DNA of 16,006 nucleotides, from UHGV virus genome UHGV-1504643; one strand, written 5' to 3'. The first letter of the stretch is position 1. Each line of letters begins with the position of its first letter. The stretch comes from a virus. The position numbers and the translations under genes are program-made. A model generated the notes under the pieces. It saw nothing but the letters and a program-made list of their open reading frames with translations. It searched no databases and had not been told where the DNA came from. This document shows positions 4,584 to 16,006 of this stretch, piece by piece.

Positions 4584-5657
4584 ATGCGCCAGGAAACCCG
4601 CTTTAAATTTAATGCCTATCTGTCCCGTGTTGCCGAACTGAACGGCATCGACGCCGGTGATGTGTCGAAAAAATTCACCGTTGAACCGTCGGTCACCCAG
4701 ACCCTGATGAACACCATGCAGGAGTCCTCTGATTTTCTGACCCGCATCAACATTGTGCCGGTCAGCGAAATGAAAGGGGAAAAAATTGGTATTGGTGTCA
4801 CCGGCTCCATCGCCAGCACCACCGACACCGCCGGTGGCACCGAGCGTCAGCCGAAGGACTTCTCGAAGCTGGCGTCAAACAAGTACGAATGCGACCAGAT
4901 TAACTTCGATTTTTATATCCGCTACAAAACGCTTGACCTGTGGGCGCGTTATCAGGATTTCCAGCTTCGTATCCGTAACGCCATTATCAAACGCCAGTCC
5001 CTTGATTTCATCATGGCCGGTTTTAACGGTGTGAAGCGTGCCGAAACCTCTGACCGCAACAGTAATCCGATGCTGCAGGATGTGGCGGTCGGCTGGCTGC
5101 AGAAATACCGCAATGAAGCCCCGGCGCGCGTGATGAGCAAGGTCACTGACGAGGAAGGCCGCACCACCTCTGAGGTTATCCGCGTGGGTAAGGGCGGTGA
5201 TTATGCCAGCCTTGATGCACTGGTGATGGATGCGACCAACAACCTGATTGAGCCGTGGTATCAGGAAGACCCTGACCTTGTGGTGATTGTGGGGCGTCAG
5301 CTACTGGCGGACAAGTATTTCCCCATCGTTAACAAAGAGCAGGACAACAGCGAAATGCTGGCCGCTGACGTCATCATCAGCCAGAAACGCATCGGTAACC
5401 TGCCGGCGGTACGCGTCCCGTACTTCCCGGCGGATGCGATGCTCATCACGAAGCTGGAAAACCTGTCCATCTACTACATGGATGACAGCCATCGCCGCGT
5501 GATTGAGGAAAACCCGAAACTCGACCGCGTGGAGAACTACGAGTCAATGAACATTGATTACGTGGTGGAAGACTACGCCGCCGGTTGCCTGGTGGAAAAA
5601 ATTAAGGTCGGTGATTTCTCCACACCGGCTAAGGCGACCGCAGAGCCGGGAGCGTAA
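4584..5657 (+). CDS. N: Major capsid protein, P2 gpN homologue
   Basis: 357-aa ORF; AGGAAA ribosome-binding site upstream of ATG; N-terminus MRQETRFKFNAYLSRVAEL... and length match P2 N as I recall. Confidence 0.95.
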   Translation: MRQETRFKFNAYLSRVAELNGIDAGDVSKKFTVEPSVTQTLMNTMQESSDFLTRINIVPVSEMKGEKIGIGVTGSIASTTDTAGGTERQPKDFSKLASNKYECDQINFDFYIRYKTLDLWARYQDFQLRIRNAIIKRQSLDFIMAGFNGVKRAETSDRNSNPMLQDVAVGWLQKYRNEAPARVMSKVTDEEGRTTSEVIRVGKGGDYASLDALVMDATNNLIEPWYQEDPDLVVIVGRQLLADKYFPIVNKEQDNSEMLAADVIISQKRIGNLPAVRVPYFPADAMLITKLENLSIYYMDDSHRRVIEENPKLDRVENYESMNIDYVVEDYAAGCLVEKIKVGDFSTPAKATAEPGA

Positions 5658-5660
5658 CCG

Positions 5661-6404
5661 ATGACGAGTCCCGCACAGCGCCACATGATGCGGGTCTCGG
5701 CAGCGATGACCGCGCAGCGGGAAGCCGCCCCGCTGCGACATGCAACTGTCTATGAGCAGATGCTGGTTAAGCTCGCCGCAGACCAGCGCACACTGAAAGC
5801 GATTTATTCAAAAGAGCTTAAGGCCGCGAAAAAGCGCGAACTGCTGCCGTTCTGGTTGCCGTGGGTGAACGGCGTGCTGGAGCAGGGCAAAGGTGCACAG
5901 GATGACATTCTGATGACGGTCATGCTGTGGCGTCTGGATAGCGGCGATATTGCCGGTGCGCTGGAGATTGCCCGTTATGCCCTGAAGTACGGTCTGACCA
6001 TGCCGGGTAAACACCGCCGCACCCCGCCGTACATGTTCACCGAGGAGGTGGCGCTCGCGGCCATGCGTGCTCACGCTGCCGGTGAGTCTGTGGATACCCG
6101 CCTGCTGACGGAGACCCTCGAACTGACCGCCACGGCTGACATGCCTGATGAAGTGCGCGCAAAGCTGCACAAAATCACCGGTCTGTTTCTGCGTGACGCT
6201 GGTGATGCCGCAGGTGCGCTGGCGCACCTGCAACGTGCGACACAGCTCGACTGTCAGGCAGGCGTCAAAAAAGAGATTGAACGACTGGAGCGGGAGCTGA
6301 AACCGAAGCCGGAGCCGCAGCCAAAAGCGGTCACCCGCGCCCCGCGTAAGACCCGGAGCGTGACCCCGGCAAAACGTGGACGCCCGAAAAAGAAAGCCAG
6401 TTAA
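5661..6404 (+). CDS. M: Terminase small (endonuclease) subunit, P2 gpM homologue
   Basis: 247-aa ORF starting 4 nt after the N stop; basic C-terminal tail (RAPRKTRSVTPAKRGRPKKKAS); position and length match P2 M. Confidence 0.92.
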   Translation: MTSPAQRHMMRVSAAMTAQREAAPLRHATVYEQMLVKLAADQRTLKAIYSKELKAAKKRELLPFWLPWVNGVLEQGKGAQDDILMTVMLWRLDSGDIAGALEIARYALKYGLTMPGKHRRTPPYMFTEEVALAAMRAHAAGESVDTRLLTETLELTATADMPDEVRAKLHKITGLFLRDAGDAAGALAHLQRATQLDCQAGVKKEIERLERELKPKPEPQPKAVTRAPRKTRSVTPAKRGRPKKKAS

Positions 6405-6503
6405 CAACCGAATGCGCCCCGCGCCAGGGCGGCACGCCGGTCAGTGACGGTGAATCACCTGACACTGCACCGGCGTCCACCGCCCGACTTTTCAGAGGTA
6501 GTC

Positions 6504-7013
6504 ATGATGACGCTGATTATTCCGCGAAAGGAGGCTCCCGTGTCCGGTGAGGGTACGGTGGTCATCCCGCAACCGGCAGGCGACGAGCCGGTGATTAAAA
6601 ACACGTTCTTTTTTCCCGATATCGACCCGAAGCGTGTCCGGGAACGTATGCGCCTTGAGCAGACCGTCGCCCCCGCCCGTCTGCGTGAGGCCATCAAGTC
6701 AGGCATGGCGGAGACGAATGCGGAGCTGTACGAGTACCGCGAACAGAAAATTGCCGCCGGTTTTACGCGTCTGGCGGACGTCCCGGCGGACGACATCGAC
6801 GGTGAAAGCATCAAAGTTTTTTACTACGAGCGCGCCGTGTGTGCGATGGCGACCGCATCGCTTTATGAGCGTTATCGCGGCGTGGATGCCAGTGCCAAGG
6901 GCGACAAGAAGGCCGACAGCATTGACAGCACCATTGATGAACTGTGGCGGGATATGCGCTGGGCGGTGGCACGTATCCAGGACAAGCCGCGCTGCATCGT
7001 GAGTCAAATCTGA
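6504..7013 (+). CDS. L: Head completion/stabilisation protein, P2 gpL homologue
   Basis: Track ORF starts at 6444; the internal ATG at 6504 has a GAGG site 6 nt upstream and gives 169 aa, matching P2 L length. Confidence 0.9.
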   Translation: MMTLIIPRKEAPVSGEGTVVIPQPAGDEPVIKNTFFFPDIDPKRVRERMRLEQTVAPARLREAIKSGMAETNAELYEYREQKIAAGFTRLADVPADDIDGESIKVFYYERAVCAMATASLYERYRGVDASAKGDKKADSIDSTIDELWRDMRWAVARIQDKPRCIVSQI

Positions 7014-12363: not shown

Positions 12364-14613
12364 ATGAGCACAAAATTCAAAACCGTTATCACCACTGCCG
12401 GTGCAGCAAAGCTGGCAGCGGCAACCGCACCGGGAGGGCGGAAGGTCAACATTACCACGATGGCCGTCGGGGATGGCGGTGGTAAATTGCCTGTCCCGGA
12501 TGCCGGACAGACCGGGCTTATCCATGAAGTCTGGCGACATGCGCTGAACAAAATCAGCCAGGACAAACGAAACAGTAATTATATTATCGCAGAGCTGGTT
12601 ATTCCGCCGGAGGTGGGCGGTTTCTGGATGCGTGAACTTGGCCTGTACGATGATGCGGGAACGCTAATTGCCGTGGCGAACATGGCCGAAAGTTATAAGC
12701 CAGCCCTTGCCGAAGGCTCAGGGCGTTCGCAGACCTGCCGCATGGTCATCATCGTCAGCAGTGTGGCCTCAGTGGAGCTGACCATTGACACCACAACGGT
12801 GATGGCAACGCAGGATTACGTTGATGACAAAATTGCAGAACATGAACAGTCACGACGTCACCCTGACGCCTCGCTGACCGCAAAAGGTTTTACTCAGTTA
12901 AGCAGTGCGACCAACAGCACGTCTGAAACACTGGCTGCAACTCCGAAAGCGGTTAAGGCCGCATATGACCTTGCTAACGGGAAATATACCGCACAGGACG
13001 CTACCACCGCGCGAAAAGGCCTTGTTCAGCTCAGTAGTGCGACTAACAGCACGTCTGAAACGCTCGCCGCAACGCCGAAAGCGGTAAAGGCAGCATATGA
13101 CCTTGCTAACGGGAAATACACTGCACAGGATGCCACAACAGCGCGAAAAGGCCTTGTTCAGCTCAGTAGCGCCACCAACAGCGATTCTGAAACGCTTGCG
13201 GCAACGCCAAAGGCGGTTAAGACAGCATATGACCTTGCTAACGGGAAATACACTGCACAGGATGCCACCACGGCGCGAAAAGGTCTTGTCCAGCTCAGTA
13301 GCGCCACCAACAGTGATTCTGAAACGCAGGCTGCAACGCCAAAGGCGGTGAAGTCTGCCTATGACAATGCTGAAAAACGTCTTCAGAAAGATCAAAACGG
13401 TGCGGATATCCCTGATAAAGAACGCTTCCTGAGTAACATTAATGTTTACAGCAAAGGTGAAGTGGATAAGAAAAAGGGAATGCGAAAGTATTCGTTTGCA
13501 GCCCCTGCAAATGTCGTTGCCGGGAAGTGGTACCCCGTTATCTTTCGCCGTGCTGCCAGCCTTTCAGGAGAAATGGCATCCCGCGTTGTTATTTCCACTG
13601 GTTGTTATAACGGCGATTATGTAATGAATAACTGCGAGTTTAATGGCATGGTTATGCCCGGAGGCTGGACTGATCGTGGTTCATATGCGGCAGGTTATTT
13701 CTGGACGTATCAGACTAATGAGCGTTCAATCCATTCCATTGTTACAAGCCTGAAAGATGATGATGTATGTAGTGTTTTTTATGTTGAAGCCAGAGCTTTC
13801 CCTGTACAAATTCTTGCAGAGGAAGGGCTAACGGTTATTGTTCCGACAGAGGATTATGTCGTCGGTCAAACGACATATAAGTGGGGAGCAACTAATCCCG
13901 CTACAGAAAGCACGAACGCACAGGCTATTCTGGATTTTAAAAATGGACGTGGTTATTACTGTTCACATCCATTTATTTCCAGCCTTTCAGGAAATGCTGC
14001 AACAGCAACGAAGTTAGCGAACGCAAGAAATATTAATGGTGTCAGATTTGATGGCTCTGCCGATATAAATATTAATACACTGGTATCCAGAAACCGTGTT
14101 AATGCATTAGGTGGGAGCGTAAAGGGGACACCAGGTATTCAGATGTATGAGGCATACAACAATGGCTACCCAACAGCCTATGGTAATGTGCTTCATCTCA
14201 CTGGCGTAACCGCAGTAGGAGAGGGTGAGTTACTTATTGGCTGGAGTGGAACCAGCGGTGCTCATGCTCCGGCATATATTCGTTCCCGACGAGATACCAC
14301 AGATGCAGACTGGTCTGGATGGGCGCAACTATATACAACTGCTCATAAACCCTCAGCGGGAGATGTTGGTGCATACACCAAAACTGAGTCAGATTCACGT
14401 TATGTGAGAGACATGCGGCTGGGCGGTGCATCTACATATAAACCAGCAAATAATGGTACTACATGGACGCATCAGGCTCCGTCAGGTTGCGTATATACCG
14501 GCATTATTGTTCAGGATACCGGCTCAAACTCTGCCGATAACATTGGTGGCGTATATTACAGACCGGTGCAGAAATACATTAACGGGACATGGTATAACGT
14601 GGCGCAGGTATAA
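12364..14613 (+). CDS. H: Tail fibre protein, P2 gpH homologue: conserved N-terminal baseplate-attachment domain, tandem fibre repeats, and a divergent lower-GC C-terminal receptor-binding region
   Basis: 749-aa ORF; N-terminus MSTKFKTVITTAGAAKLAAATAPG... is P2 H-like as I recall; contains about 3.7 tandem 44-aa repeats and the widespread fibre motif NAATATKLANARNINGVRFDGSADININ in the C-terminal half. Confidence 0.93.
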   Translation: MSTKFKTVITTAGAAKLAAATAPGGRKVNITTMAVGDGGGKLPVPDAGQTGLIHEVWRHALNKISQDKRNSNYIIAELVIPPEVGGFWMRELGLYDDAGTLIAVANMAESYKPALAEGSGRSQTCRMVIIVSSVASVELTIDTTTVMATQDYVDDKIAEHEQSRRHPDASLTAKGFTQLSSATNSTSETLAATPKAVKAAYDLANGKYTAQDATTARKGLVQLSSATNSTSETLAATPKAVKAAYDLANGKYTAQDATTARKGLVQLSSATNSDSETLAATPKAVKTAYDLANGKYTAQDATTARKGLVQLSSATNSDSETQAATPKAVKSAYDNAEKRLQKDQNGADIPDKERFLSNINVYSKGEVDKKKGMRKYSFAAPANVVAGKWYPVIFRRAASLSGEMASRVVISTGCYNGDYVMNNCEFNGMVMPGGWTDRGSYAAGYFWTYQTNERSIHSIVTSLKDDDVCSVFYVEARAFPVQILAEEGLTVIVPTEDYVVGQTTYKWGATNPATESTNAQAILDFKNGRGYYCSHPFISSLSGNAATATKLANARNINGVRFDGSADININTLVSRNRVNALGGSVKGTPGIQMYEAYNNGYPTAYGNVLHLTGVTAVGEGELLIGWSGTSGAHAPAYIRSRRDTTDADWSGWAQLYTTAHKPSAGDVGAYTKTESDSRYVRDMRLGGASTYKPANNGTTWTHQAPSGCVYTGIIVQDTGSNSADNIGGVYYRPVQKYINGTWYNVAQV
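12883..13365 (+). repeat. Tandem direct repeat, 132-bp unit x about 3.7 copies, in frame within H (phage tail-fibre repeat)
   Basis: Near-identical units starting at 12883, 13015, 13147 and 13279, each encoding KG(F/L)(T/V)QLSSATNS(T/D)SET(L/Q)AATPKAVK(A/T/S)AYDLANGKYTAQDATTAR; the fourth copy diverges after AYD. Confidence 0.9.
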
Positions 14614-14616
14614 TTT

Positions 14617-15144
14617 ATGCAGCATTTAAAAAATATTACGGCGGGTAATCCAAAAACGGTTGAACAATATCAATTGACAAAGGACTTTGATGTTGTCTGG
14701 TTTTTTTCAGAAGATGGTAAGAACTGGTACGAAGAACAAAAGTATTTTGCTGATGACACGATAAAAATAGCGTACGACAAAGATAATATCATCCACTATG
14801 TGGAAAAGGATGTGACAGCTATCAGACCGGATGGATTAAGTGTTGTTGAAGTGGCGGATATTACTGCTAACCGACGGGCGGACATTTCAGGGAACTGGAT
14901 GTTTAAGGACGGCAAAGTGATTAAACGCATTTATACGGCAGAGGAATTACAGCAGCAGGCAGAAATTCGGAAAGCCAGACTTCTTGCAGATGCTGAATCC
15001 GTGATTTTGCCGCTGGAGCGCGCGGTCAGACTGAACATGGCAACAGATGAGGAGCGTAGCCGACTGGAATCATGGGAACGCTACAGCGTTCTGGTCAGTC
15101 GTGTGGATCCTGCAAATCCTGAATGGCCGGAAATGCCGCAATAA
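14617..15144 (+). CDS. G: Tail fibre assembly protein (fibre chaperone), P2 gpG homologue
   Basis: 175-aa ORF starting 3 nt after the H stop; position and length match P2 G; lower G+C, like the H C-terminal half. Confidence 0.9.
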
Positions 15145-15167
15145 GTTGTATTAGCTTACATATCTAT

Positions 15168-15207
15168 GGCACAGAGTAAAGCCTAATCTGACAGTCCGCT
15201 CTGTGCC
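15168..15207 (+). repeat. Inverted repeat / stem-loop (9-bp stem, 22-nt loop) 24 nt downstream of G
   Basis: GGCACAGAG (15168-15176) and CTCTGTGCC (15199-15207) are exact reverse complements; no U-tract follows. Confidence 0.5.
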
Positions 15208-15501
15208 AGGAGCAGACATTGCCAACGTTATGACCCTCGATTACATCAAAGAGCCCTATAGCCGAAACCTGCACCATAGCCATCTCTGTAGAATTCGTCC
15301 TAGGGGCTTTTAACAGACCTAGTTGTATGGATCGGAAGGAAATATTAAAGCTCAAGGCGTCAGTCCAGTGCTGTCCTGTTTGCTTACCACACGAAAGAGT
15401 GCTGCTTGTACCTGCTAACTAATGGATGCGGAGTGAGGGGGGCGGGTAGAACCAAAAGCACTTACTACGTGTGGCGCTCTCCTGGAAGAGGAGACGTCGA
15501 A

Positions 15502-15588
15502 GTGATAACGCTAACAACAGTCTTACTGGTGATGCAAATAATGCTAGCTGGTCTGGTTGCCATCAAGCAACTGACCGGACGCCCGTAA
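15502..15588 (+). CDS. Hypothetical 28-codon hydrophobic peptide (candidate small membrane protein or type I toxin-like peptide)
   Basis: GTG start at 15502 with AGAGGAG (15487-15493) 8 nt upstream; encodes (M)ITLTTVLLVMQIMLAGLVAIKQLTGRP, one predicted transmembrane helix plus a short basic tail; stop TAA at 15586-15588, about 22 nt before an intrinsic terminator. No homology evidence available. Confidence 0.3.
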   Translation: MITLTTVLLVMQIMLAGLVAIKQLTGRP

Positions 15589-15610
15589 GGGATGGAGGAA
15601 CTTGATTAAA

Positions 15611-15639
15611 GGCAGGGGGGTACCTCCCCTGCCTTTTTT
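15611..15639 (+). terminator. Rho-independent terminator (plus strand)
   Basis: GGCAGGGG (15611-15618) / CCCCTGCC (15626-15633) stem with a 7-nt loop, followed by TTTTTT (15634-15639). Confidence 0.65.
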
Positions 15640-15702
15640 CGTTTCTGCGCAAGTTAGCTCTGTTATTATAATCTTTACTCACACTGTAAGGACATAGTTC
15701 AA

Positions 15703-16006
15703 ATGACTGAATGGCTTAATGCACATTTTGGTGCAGACGCAGCTACCTATCTTAGCTTATTAGTCGGCGTACTGGCACTGTTTGGTATTGGGGGCGGTGT
15801 TACATATAGAATCAGACAGCAAAACAACATAAAACAGAAGGCAAAGAAAACCGAGGGTGATGTGAACCAGGCCGGGCGGGATATTAATCAGACCACCAAC
15901 GTTTACCACACATCCAATGAATCTACTGAGGACCCTGTAAAAAAAAAGCAAGATGAACAAGATCTGAAAATAATCGACCAGATCCTTGAATTGCTGCCTT
16001 ATGAAG
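15703..16006 (+). CDS. Hypothetical membrane-anchored protein, N-terminal 101 codons only (continues beyond window end); cargo gene at the P2 G/FI (Z/fun) position
   Basis: ATG at 15703 with AAGGA about 9 nt upstream; open to the window end, which is why it is absent from the ORF track. Translation: MTEWLNAHFGADAATYLSLLVGVLALFGIGGGVTYRIRQQNNIKQKAKKTEGDVNQAGRDINQTTNVYHTSNESTEDPVKKKQDEQDLKIIDQILELLPYE... One N-terminal transmembrane helix followed by a polar, charged region. Not recognisable as P2 FI or any P2 late protein. Confidence 0.6.
   Translation, partial: MTEWLNAHFGADAATYLSLLVGVLALFGIGGGVTYRIRQQNNIKQKAKKTEGDVNQAGRDINQTTNVYHTSNESTEDPVKKKQDEQDLKIIDQILELLPYE

What the first reader, a model, noticed from the sequence alone, without database searches (positions are those of the whole stretch)
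15145..15702. 560-bp lower-GC non-coding segment after G with hairpin, small hydrophobic ORF and strong terminator
At the position where P2 carries Z/fun, this prophage has a segment with no convincing protein gene of 60 aa or more. It contains a perfect 9-bp inverted repeat (15168-15207), a 28-codon hydrophobic ORF with a good Shine-Dalgarno site (15502-15588), and a strong intrinsic terminator (15611-15639). That architecture (short membrane peptide, long structured leader, terminator) is reminiscent of type I toxin-antitoxin loci or of a small-RNA gene, either of which could be part of a phage-exclusion or addiction module. This is inference from layout only.
Basis: partly seen in the sequence, partly recalled or inferred. 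Interest (0 to 1): 0.6.

Follow-up and report, generated by a model that had tools for sequence, protein, structure and literature searches.

The report
Truncated type I toxin gene relic
The "non-coding" stretch after the P2 tail gene G is mostly the leftover toxin half of a plasmid-type small-peptide toxin/antisense-RNA (type I toxin-antitoxin) module that has lost its antitoxin RNA gene and promoter, and it revealed a family of such modules that is absent from the family libraries and papers I could search.

Summary
All the described features are real, but the 558 bases are a composite. (1) 15145-15217 is P2 backbone. (2) 15218-15367 is an orphan 150-nt spacer. (3) 15368-15652 matches (nhmmer E 2e-67) the 3' half of a ~590-nt locus found on Pantoea, Erwinia, Serratia, Mixta, Klebsiella, Providencia and Proteus plasmids. 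That locus has a 31-codon GTG-start hydrophobic ORF (…KQLTGRP), a hairpin that sequesters its SD, a terminator, and a divergent ~95-nt sRNA. The sRNA's 5' tail is complementary to the toxin 5' UTR and co-varies with it in five sequence classes, the same layout as TisB/IstR-1 and ZorO/OrzO. The window keeps the sRNA target site, the SD hairpin, the ORF (with a 3-codon in-frame deletion, 28 aa) and the terminator. It lacks the sRNA gene, the toxin promoter and the first ~70 nt of the mRNA. (4) 15653-15702 is the extended -10 promoter and RBS of the 227-aa cargo gene. I read the segment as a carried-along relic whose terminator probably insulates the cargo gene.

The parts
15145..15217 (+). P2-backbone tail after gene G, annotated as 'left inverted repeat' of the variable Z region in P2-EC45. 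It contains the 10-bp hairpin 15167-15176/15199-15208.
   Evidence: 85-97% identical over roughly 70-87 nt to P2, L-413C, P2-EC45 and many other P2-like phages. Annotation of AJ512679. Hairpin. 914 of 5426 E. coli genomes match this part.
15194..15217 (.). Cassette-boundary core site GTCCGCTCTGTGCCAGGAGCAGAC: 8-bp inverted arms around an 8-nt spacer. It marks the left edge of the cargo cassette.
   Evidence: Unique in the window, with 0 expected by chance. It recurs directly after the 227-aa gene and, inverted, where the P2 FI side resumes. It also lies on both sides of the same cassette in CP4-57-like islands. It occurs in 51 IMG/VR contigs.
15218..15367 (.). 150-nt spacer of unknown origin that belongs to the cassette. 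It has no detectable relative outside the cassette lineage.
   Evidence: No nhmmer hit to the TA-family profile, no blastn hit in other loci, and no protein relative in six frames. It tolerates 12-nt and 40-nt insertions in the Serratia copy. It contains only a weak promoter-like TAGAAT at 15289.
15368..15652 (+). 5'-truncated toxin transcription unit of a plasmid-type type I TA family. It holds the distal 5' UTR, ORF and terminator.
   Evidence: nhmmer profile of 11 full-length plasmid loci: E 1.8e-67, profile positions 294-578 of 594. blastn identity of 67-77% to plasmids of 9 genera.
15399..15420 (+). Target site for the missing antitoxin sRNA (GTGCTGCTTGTACCTGCTAACT).
   Evidence: Identical to the UTR copy of the 22-nt direct repeat in L018, L019 and L022, whose upstream copy forms the 5' tail of the divergent sRNA. 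There is a single copy in the window. Two substitutions fall inside it in most E. coli alleles.
15472..15499 (+). Hairpin that sequesters the Shine-Dalgarno sequence (TCTCCT 15478-83 pairs with AGGAGA 15489-94).
   Evidence: -14.6 kcal/mol. The anti-SD/SD pair CTCTCCT...AGGAG is kept in all family members.
15502..15588 (+). Toxin ORF of 28 codons, the family's 31-codon ORF with an in-frame 9-nt deletion.
   Evidence: Start (GTG), frame, stop and the ...KQLTGRP end are kept in all full-length copies fetched (25 loci listed; only L027 lacks the start). The window copy is 51.6-72.4% aa identical to the plasmid copies. Mean pN/pS is 0.55. The two substitutions among E. coli alleles are both synonymous.
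15608..15645 (+). Intrinsic terminator of the toxin unit. Here it is also the first terminator after the P2 late tail-gene G.
   Evidence: 13-bp stem plus T-run. Conserved across the family, with compensatory changes in the stem. Disrupted by IS421 in strain RS571 and by IS2 in viral contig L042.
15653..15702 (+). Promoter and RBS of the 227-aa cargo gene, whose ATG is at 15703. Extended -10: TG 15661-2 plus TATTAT 15664-9 (TATAAT at 15667-72). SD AAGGA at 15688-92.
   Evidence: This is the only part of the segment shared with distant homologues of the 227-aa gene (70-78% identity; aligned TGnTAAGAT).

Best explanation
The segment is a composite. Its core (15368-15652) is a 5'-truncated, antitoxin-less copy of the toxin gene of a plasmid-borne type I toxin-antitoxin family.

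In the complete loci a ~370-nt mRNA carries the toxin. It has a promoter TTGCGG-17-TATACT, a ~200-nt structured 5' UTR and an SD locked in a hairpin. It encodes a 31-aa single-helix membrane peptide. A divergently transcribed ~95-nt sRNA has a single-stranded ~22-nt 5' tail, one stem-loop and a terminator. Its tail pairs with the UTR about 75-100 nt upstream of the start codon. By analogy with TisB/IstR-1 and ZorO/OrzO, this would block ribosome loading and/or trigger cleavage (inferred).

In this prophage only the distal UTR (with the sRNA target), the SD hairpin, the ORF (shortened by 3 codons) and the terminator survive. The truncated piece travels with the 227-aa gene as one cassette bounded by a 24-nt repeated site. 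It moves between CP4-57-like islands and the P2 Z/fun position.

The most likely present-day activity is passive (inferred). The strong terminator ends read-through from the late V-W-J-I-H-G transcript and shields the cargo gene, which has its own extended -10 promoter just downstream. The toxin ORF is probably silent or disabled.
For: Shown:
- Homology of 15368-15652 to profile positions 294-578 of the family.
- The peptide ORF is conserved across genera with many synonymous changes.
- sRNA gene in full-length loci: promoter TTGACN-16-18-TAAnAT, ~93-96 nt (124 nt in Rts1), with 10 of 17 pairs showing compensatory changes.
- A covariance model built from 11 loci finds the sRNA at 46-107 bits in 13 places in 12 loci not used to build it, always opposite the toxin.
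- The 14-24-nt repeat (sRNA tail / UTR target) co-varies in five sequence classes, with predicted duplexes of -43 to -63 kcal/mol.
- The mRNA structure has 20 of 74 covarying pairs.

Absence here:
- No sRNA hit in the window, in the related P2-like loci or in the island loci.
- No sRNA gene in 5426 E. coli genomes.
- No sigma-70 consensus promoter upstream of the ORF.

Relaxed constraint:
- Independent in-frame deletions of 9 nt (E. coli) and 21 nt (Serratia).
- Insertions of 12 nt and 40 nt.
- IS66, IS421 and IS2 insertions.
- Substitutions clustered in the orphan target site.

Cassette structure.

Cargo promoter downstream of the terminator, conserved in distant homologues that lack the segment.

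Layout parallels: PMC8594479 and PMC4147584.
Against: - There are no expression or toxicity data for any family member, so 'type I TA' rests on comparative sequence evidence only.
- The ORF is still open in every copy seen. Both deletions are in frame, and both E. coli substitutions are synonymous. These are weak hints that the peptide may still be made.
- A weak promoter-like TAGAAT (15289) exists.
- Late-operon read-through would transcribe the ORF during lytic growth.
- All copies of the truncated form are at least 96% identical, so neither selection nor decay can be measured well.
- The insulating role of the terminator is inferred. Two copies have it disrupted by IS elements.
Confidence: 0.7

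Rival explanations
1. Functional orphan toxin. The 28-aa peptide is still produced, either from late-operon read-through at the end of lytic growth or from a weak internal promoter. It acts on the membrane, for example by aiding lysis timing, abortive infection or exclusion. It would be controlled only by its SD-sequestering mRNA fold.
For: The ORF, start codon, SD and SD hairpin are intact. Both deletions seen in the truncated lineage are in frame. Both E. coli substitutions in the ORF are synonymous. There is no terminator between the G stop and 15608, so late transcripts should cover it. A 20-residue hydrophobic stretch remains.
Against: There is no antitoxin anywhere in E. coli genomes and no recognisable promoter. 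Three to seven codons are lost from the transmembrane segment. IS insertions and indels are tolerated. Two in-frame deletions and two synonymous changes are statistically weak evidence (roughly 1 in 9 and about 1 in 16 by chance).
Confidence: 0.15
2. The RNA itself is the functional part. One version is a decoy that carries the sRNA target site and titrates the antitoxin sRNA of an incoming plasmid of this family. The other is a cis-regulatory leader for the 227-aa gene.
For: The 22-nt target site is identical to that of the Pantoea/Erwinia-type sRNA. The segment always travels with the 227-aa gene in E. coli.
Against: Most E. coli alleles have two substitutions in the target site. No plasmid of the family is seen in E. 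coli complete genomes. The cargo gene has its own promoter after the terminator. Distant homologues of the gene lack the segment. No promoter is found for the RNA.
Confidence: 0.07
3. Decayed remnant of a larger protein-coding gene (frameshifted pseudogene), or plain spacer whose ORF, hairpins and terminator are chance features.
For: There are open stretches of 62-84 codons in several frames. One gives a weak, sub-threshold Rad50 zinc-hook match (E 0.005, 17 bits against a cut-off of 24.3). An indel polymorphism lies at 15425.
Against: A concatenated six-frame translation found nothing at E<=10 among 5.8 billion proteins, and there are no Pfam or NCBIfam hits. The ORF, SD hairpin and terminator are conserved as a unit in other genera, which excludes chance for 15368-15652. 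This reading remains possible only for the 150 nt at 15218-15367.
Confidence: 0.05

Closest known systems
TisB/IstR-1 (E. coli chromosomal type I TA)
   Same: For the full-length plasmid relatives:
- A ~30-aa single-helix hydrophobic peptide (TisB is 29 aa).
- A long structured 5' UTR.
- A divergently encoded, non-overlapping sRNA.
- About 21-22 nt at the sRNA's 5' end pair with the UTR far upstream of the RBS.
Sources: PMC4147584, PMC8594479.
   Different: There is no sequence similarity to TisB or IstR (no Pfam, NCBIfam or Rfam hit) and no conserved LexA box. The family is plasmid-borne. The window copy lacks the sRNA, the promoter and the 5' UTR start. The standby-site mechanism is not tested.
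ZorO/OrzO, ShoB/OhsC, DinQ/AgrB (other 'sRNA 5' of mRNA, non-overlapping' type I families)
   Same: The gene layout is the same (PMC8594479). The peptides are small and hydrophobic, 26-29 aa from my own knowledge. Tandem duplication, as in zorO-orzO/zorP-orzP, is seen in Winslowiella arboricola.
   Different: The peptide (...IVAIKQLTGRP) and the RNAs are unrelated in sequence, and Rfam models do not match. The family occurs on Erwiniaceae, Yersiniaceae and Morganellaceae plasmids rather than the E. coli chromosome.
Hok/Sok-type plasmid post-segregational killing loci (hok/sok, flm, srnB, pnd)
   Same: For the full-length relatives, the genomic niche is similar. They sit in maintenance or leading regions of conjugative plasmids, next to psiA, parM, umuC and a DNA methylase. 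The SD is sequestered. MFE folds of single copies predict a long-range pairing of the 5' UTR with the 3' end of the ORF.
   Different: Hok is about 50 aa and is translationally coupled to mok, and Sok overlaps the mRNA in cis. Here the peptide is 31 aa, there is no mok-like frame, and the sRNA is trans-encoded. There is no HOK_GEF or Sok match.
P2 Z/fun variable locus (moron hotspot between G and FI)
   Same: The position in the prophage is the same, as is the conserved 'left inverted repeat' after G. Foreign cargo is bounded by repeats. Compare Nilsson et al. 2004, Mol Biol Evol 21:1, listed in the references of PMC3448106; its content is recalled from memory.
   Different: There is no similarity to Z/fun itself. 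The cargo here is a cassette shared with CP4-57-like islands.

Membership tests
Unnamed plasmid type I TA family (31-aa ...KQLTGRP toxin plus divergent ~95-nt sRNA) | Sequence homology of the toxin transcription unit | tested here: met
   nhmmer E 1.8e-67 over window 15368-15652, profile positions 294-578 of 594. The peptide is 51.6-72.4% identical, full length.
Unnamed plasmid type I TA family (31-aa ...KQLTGRP toxin plus divergent ~95-nt sRNA) | Divergent sRNA gene upstream of the toxin | tested here: not met
   Profile positions 1-293 are absent. The covariance model R1 gives only a 19-bit hit on the 22-nt target repeat, against 46-107 bits in full-length loci. No match in E. coli genomes.
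Unnamed plasmid type I TA family (31-aa ...KQLTGRP toxin plus divergent ~95-nt sRNA) | Toxin promoter (-35 / 17 nt / TATACT or TATAAT, about 200-225 nt upstream of the GTG) | tested here: not met
   The corresponding profile positions are missing, and no consensus promoter lies in 15218-15500.
Unnamed plasmid type I TA family (31-aa ...KQLTGRP toxin plus divergent ~95-nt sRNA) | 31-codon ORF | tested here: not met
   28 codons, from an in-frame 9-nt deletion inside the hydrophobic helix.
Type I toxin-antitoxin systems (general) | Small hydrophobic peptide ORF with an RBS | tested here: met
   28 aa with a 20-residue hydrophobic stretch and SD AGGAG 8 nt upstream.
Type I toxin-antitoxin systems (general) | RNA antitoxin that base-pairs with the toxin mRNA | tested here: not met
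   The target site is present (15399-15420), but no partner RNA gene lies in the window, the related loci or E. coli genomes. An overlapping antisense promoter is only weakly suggested: TTGATG-17-CATTAT on the minus strand at 15566-15538.
Type I toxin-antitoxin systems (general) | Peptide is toxic when expressed, and the RNA neutralises it | not testable with these tools
   This needs expression experiments. None were found in the literature searched.
Hok/Sok | Hok/Gef-family peptide (~50 aa), mok leader frame, cis-overlapping Sok RNA | tested here: not met
   No Pfam or NCBIfam hit for the peptide and no Sok or other Rfam hit.
TisB/IstR-1 | TisB peptide family, IstR RNA family, LexA-controlled toxin promoter | tested here: not met
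   No Pfam or Rfam match. No conserved LexA box in the family promoters. Only the layout is shared.
Rho-independent terminator | GC-rich stem-loop followed by a U-tract | tested here: met
   13-bp stem with 8 GC pairs, a 3-nt loop, then TTTTTTCGTTT. -26 kcal/mol.
Stand-alone small-RNA gene (any Rfam family) | Match to a curated RNA family, or own promoter plus terminator and a conserved structure | tested here: not met
   All Rfam hits are far below gathering scores. The fold z-score is only -2.35 with the terminator included. No promoter was found.

The most novel reading that the evidence does not exclude
The truncated toxin transcript is not junk but a weapon or sensor. It would be made as the 3' tail of the late tail-fibre mRNA or from a weak promoter. 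In one version it supplies an unguarded membrane peptide that contributes to killing or lysis timing. In the other, its retained 22-nt target site soaks up the antitoxin sRNA of an incoming plasmid of the same family, unleashing that plasmid's own toxin. That would be an RNA-decoy form of anti-plasmid or anti-MGE defence, carried in a defence-cargo cassette.
Probability: 0.06. Interest if true: 0.75.

Novelty: new member of a known kind. Interest (0 to 1): 0.42.

Why it matters
For this prophage the result is mostly clarifying. The odd "non-coding" block at the Z/fun position is a dragged-along fragment plus a terminator, not a hidden working module.

The wider value is twofold.

First, it exposes a coherent type I toxin-antitoxin family with strong comparative support. 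The evidence is a conserved 31-aa peptide, a covarying sRNA structure, and co-variation of the sRNA tail with its UTR target in five sequence classes. I found no description of it in the libraries available to me, and no record I fetched annotates it. It sits on plasmids of plant-associated and clinical Enterobacterales, including IncT Rts1. Its toxicity, its sRNA control and its effect on plasmid stabilisation are directly testable.

Second, it shows that a short 8-8-8 repeated site delimits cargo cassettes that move between P2-like prophages, CP4-57-like islands and plasmids. A recent preprint on P2/P4 defence hotspots says the recombination processes there 'still need to be elucidated' (bioRxiv 10.64898/2026.02.27.708500).

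Tried and rejected
- Rfam scan of the region and of a full-length relative: only chance-level hits.
- tRNA/tmRNA scan: none.
- Covariation within E. coli: impossible, because the 33 genomes with the segment are at least 98% identical.
- Phage collection: no match beyond the first ~80 nt.
- Linkage to the 227-aa gene as an obligate RNA partner: rejected. Homologues at 46-59% identity lack the segment and share only the last ~46 nt.
- Decayed-gene hypothesis: the six-frame pseudo-protein found nothing. The Rad50 zinc-hook hit on a 31-aa ORF is below threshold and unsupported.
- MITE or terminal-repeat idea (arms 15174-15194 / 15660-15680, 71%): rejected, because the left arm is conserved P2 backbone.
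- Leader-peptide attenuator for the cargo gene: rejected, because the gene's conserved promoter lies downstream of the terminator and I saw no convincing antiterminator by eye.
- The search for related loci with the 28-aa peptide: query too short.
- Degenerate peptide pattern in IMG/VR: only near-identical P2-like copies.
- Literature searches for the peptide motif and for a described family: nothing.
- Odegrip 2006 is not held.
- LexA box search in family promoters: none conserved.
- AlphaFold model of the 227-aa cargo protein: too poor (pLDDT 55) for a fold search.

Full report
**Setting**

The window is a P2-like prophage running from Q/P through H and G. G is at 14617-15144. The finding covers the 558 bases between the G stop and the next gene, whose ATG is at 15703. 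In strain cM2a the identical segment is followed by three genes and then the tail sheath gene FI. These are a 227-aa hypothetical membrane protein, a 261-aa hypothetical protein, and a DUF6650 nuclease-like protein on the other strand. This is the Z/fun moron position.

**Observation**

All three features exist.
- Hairpin: 10 bp, at 15167-15176/15199-15208.
- Small ORF: 28 codons from GTG 15502 to 15588, with SD AGGAG 8 nt upstream.
- Terminator: 13-bp stem plus T-run at 15608-15645.

GC is 47.7% against 54.3% for the window, but it is not below the adjacent G gene or the cargo gene. Rfam and tRNA scans were negative.

**The segment is a composite**

The first ~70 nt are P2 backbone. They are 85-97% identical in P2, L-413C and others, and are annotated 'left inverted repeat' in P2-EC45.

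The remainder (15183-15702) together with the 227-aa gene occurs in only 33 of 5426 complete E. coli genomes, at 98% identity or more. Most of these copies are not in P2. They lie in CP4-57-like islands, between a divergent YeeP/YfjP-type GTPase gene and the 227-aa gene.

Homology between the phage and island contexts begins and ends at a 24-nt site, GTYCGCTYTGTGCCAGGAGCRGAC (window 15194-15217). The site has 8-bp inverted arms around an 8-nt spacer. It recurs directly after the 227-aa gene, and inverted where the P2 backbone resumes.

**What the middle is not**

- Distant homologues of the 227-aa protein (16 clusters, 36-63% identity) sit in other contexts. The eight loci fetched for four of them (46-59% identity) share only the last ~46 nt upstream of the start, which contain an extended -10 promoter. 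The long segment is therefore not an obligate partner of that gene.
- A concatenated six-frame translation found no protein relative among 5.8 billion sequences. Pfam and NCBIfam were empty apart from a sub-threshold Rad50-hook match.

**Plasmid relatives**

A sensitive blastn search against plasmids matched window 15368-15650 at 67-77% identity. The hits were on plasmids of Pantoea, Erwinia, Serratia, Mixta, Klebsiella, Citrobacter, Providencia and Proteus, the last being IncT Rts1, where the match lies next to psiA. tblastn with the 28-aa peptide hit nine of these plasmids (Pantoea, Erwinia, Serratia, Klebsiella) along its full length.

Alignment shows a conserved locus. Its parts are:
- a 31-codon GTG-start ORF, M-I-[TS]-L-x-[TS]-I-L-...-I-V-[AV]-[IV]-K-Q-L-T-G-R-P;
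- an anti-SD/SD hairpin;
- an almost invariant ORF 3' end;
- the terminator.

Start codon, frame, length and stop are kept in every full-length copy. Many changes are synonymous or conservative (mean pN/pS 0.55).

**The antitoxin**

Each full-length locus carries a 14-24-nt direct repeat. One copy lies about 95 nt upstream of the GTG and the other about 300 nt upstream. The repeat sequence differs between subfamilies but is the same in both copies of a given locus. Five classes were seen.

The upstream copy lies just downstream of a minus-strand promoter, TTGACN-16-18-TAAnAT. It forms the single-stranded 5' tail of a ~93-96-nt RNA (124 nt in Rts1) that continues into a stem-loop and a terminator with U8.
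- RNAalifold finds compensatory changes in 10 of 17 pairs.
- Predicted tail:UTR duplexes are -43 to -63 kcal/mol.
- A covariance model built from 11 loci finds this RNA at 46-107 bits in 13 places in 12 loci not used to build it, always opposite the toxin.
- The toxin mRNA has promoter TTGCGG-17-TATACT, a ~200-nt 5' UTR, and 20 of 74 predicted pairs with compensatory changes.

This is the gene layout of TisB/IstR-1, ZorO/OrzO, ShoB/OhsC and DinQ/AgrB (PMC8594479; PMC4147584). There is no sequence similarity to any of them, nor to Rfam, Pfam or NCBIfam models.

A scan of species-representative genomes found the toxin in 11 genomes: Winslowiella (a tandem pair in W. arboricola), Pantoea, Sodalis, Serratia, Providencia and Mixta. 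I found no description of this family.

**What the window retains**

A profile of the full locus matches the window only at 15368-15652, which is profile positions 294-578 of 594 (E 1.8e-67).

Present:
- the sRNA target site, 15399-15420, identical to the Pantoea/Erwinia class;
- the SD hairpin, 15472-15499;
- the ORF with an in-frame 9-nt deletion;
- the terminator.

Absent:
- the sRNA gene, the toxin promoter and the first ~70 nt of the mRNA;
- any copy of the sRNA gene in E. coli complete genomes;
- any detectable relative for the 150 nt at 15218-15367.

The same truncated form occurs in a Serratia proteamaculans chromosome. That copy has an independent in-frame 21-nt deletion (24 aa) and insertions of 12 and 40 nt. 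The truncated form also occurs in a P2-like viral contig with IS2 in the terminator. E. coli RS571 has IS421 in the terminator, and E24377A has IS66 at 15370. Most E. coli alleles carry two substitutions inside the orphan target site.

**Interpretation**

Shown:
- homology to the toxin half of the family;
- absence of the antitoxin and of the toxin promoter;
- the cassette structure;
- the cargo promoter downstream of the terminator.

Inferred:
- the family works like TisB/IstR-1;
- this copy is a relic whose terminator ends late-operon read-through and insulates the cargo gene.

The ORF is still open, the deletions are in frame and the few substitutions are synonymous. I therefore keep a functional orphan toxin at about 15% and an RNA-level role at about 7%. 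Chance or a decayed larger gene is essentially excluded for 15368-15652.

**Verdict**

The hairpin belongs to a different feature. For the window itself this is ordinary. The interest lies in the apparently undescribed TA family and in the cassette-boundary site.

Noticed in passing
window 15194-15217; L001 10412-10435 and (inverted) 12443-12478; L006 4970-4993 and 6333-6356; L033 5674: A 24-nt site, GTYCGCTYTGTGCCAGGAGCRGAC, has 8-bp inverted arms around an 8-nt spacer. It bounds exchangeable cargo cassettes in the P2 Z/fun hotspot and in CP4-57-like islands. It also lies near or next to the TA loci on Pantoea and Mixta replicons, and it occurs in 51 IMG/VR contigs of various sizes. It looks like a recombination site. 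The enzyme is unknown.
   Followed up: partly
window 15703-16006 (continues in L001 9559-10242): The cargo gene encodes a 227-aa protein with an N-terminal transmembrane helix, a low-complexity linker and a helical C-terminal domain. The family is rare (16 clusters in 5.8 billion proteins) and has no Pfam or PADLOC hit. It is always found in MGE or defence-like neighbourhoods (KAP NTPase, Abi_2, phage tail ends, integrases). The AlphaFold model was poor (pLDDT 55).
   Followed up: partly
L001 10597-12296 (same prophage cargo, beyond the window end): A second cassette holds a 261-aa hypothetical protein and a DUF6650 protein. The N-terminal ~120 aa of the DUF6650 protein match PADLOC nuclease effector models (PDC-M68A, CBASS-type endonuclease effectors, SduA), so it is a candidate defence system.
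   Followed up: no
L038 7413-7685 versus window 15502-15588: Two independent in-frame deletions have shortened the hydrophobic helix of the orphan toxin: 9 nt in E. coli and 21 nt in Serratia proteamaculans. This is consistent either with attenuation after loss of the antitoxin or with chance.
   Followed up: partly
L003 (RS571) about 5405-6743; L042 about 8190; L004 (E24377A) 5146: Three different IS elements have inserted into the relic in different strains: IS421 and IS2 in the terminator, and IS66 at the position of window 15370.
   Followed up: partly
L031 4381-4944 and 5082-5632 (Winslowiella arboricola): There are two tandem full-length copies of the TA locus. A clear sRNA-tail/target repeat, of a distinct sequence class, was detected only in the second copy. 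The tandem arrangement resembles the zorO-orzO/zorP-orzP duplication.
   Followed up: partly
L021 2459-2713 (plasmid Rts1, NC_003905): RefSeq annotates an 84-aa 'hypothetical protein' that overlaps the toxin unit and ends out of frame with the conserved 31-codon ORF (2625-2720). This is probably a mis-call. None of the fetched records annotates the toxin ORF. The sRNA could not be checked, because the plasmid gene tables list no RNA genes.
   Followed up: no
L010 2760-2812: In a lambda-like (GpJ-type) phage contig, a homologue of the 227-aa gene follows the tail-fibre genes. It is preceded by a sequence 74.5% identical to the P2 post-G hairpin region (window 15155-15209). This suggests that the same boundary element is used in unrelated tail modules.
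   Followed up: no
window 15538-15566, minus strand: A weak promoter-like site (TTGATG-17-CATTAT) lies inside the small ORF. It would give an RNA antisense to the start codon and SD. It is at chance level and was not examined in the relatives.
   Followed up: no
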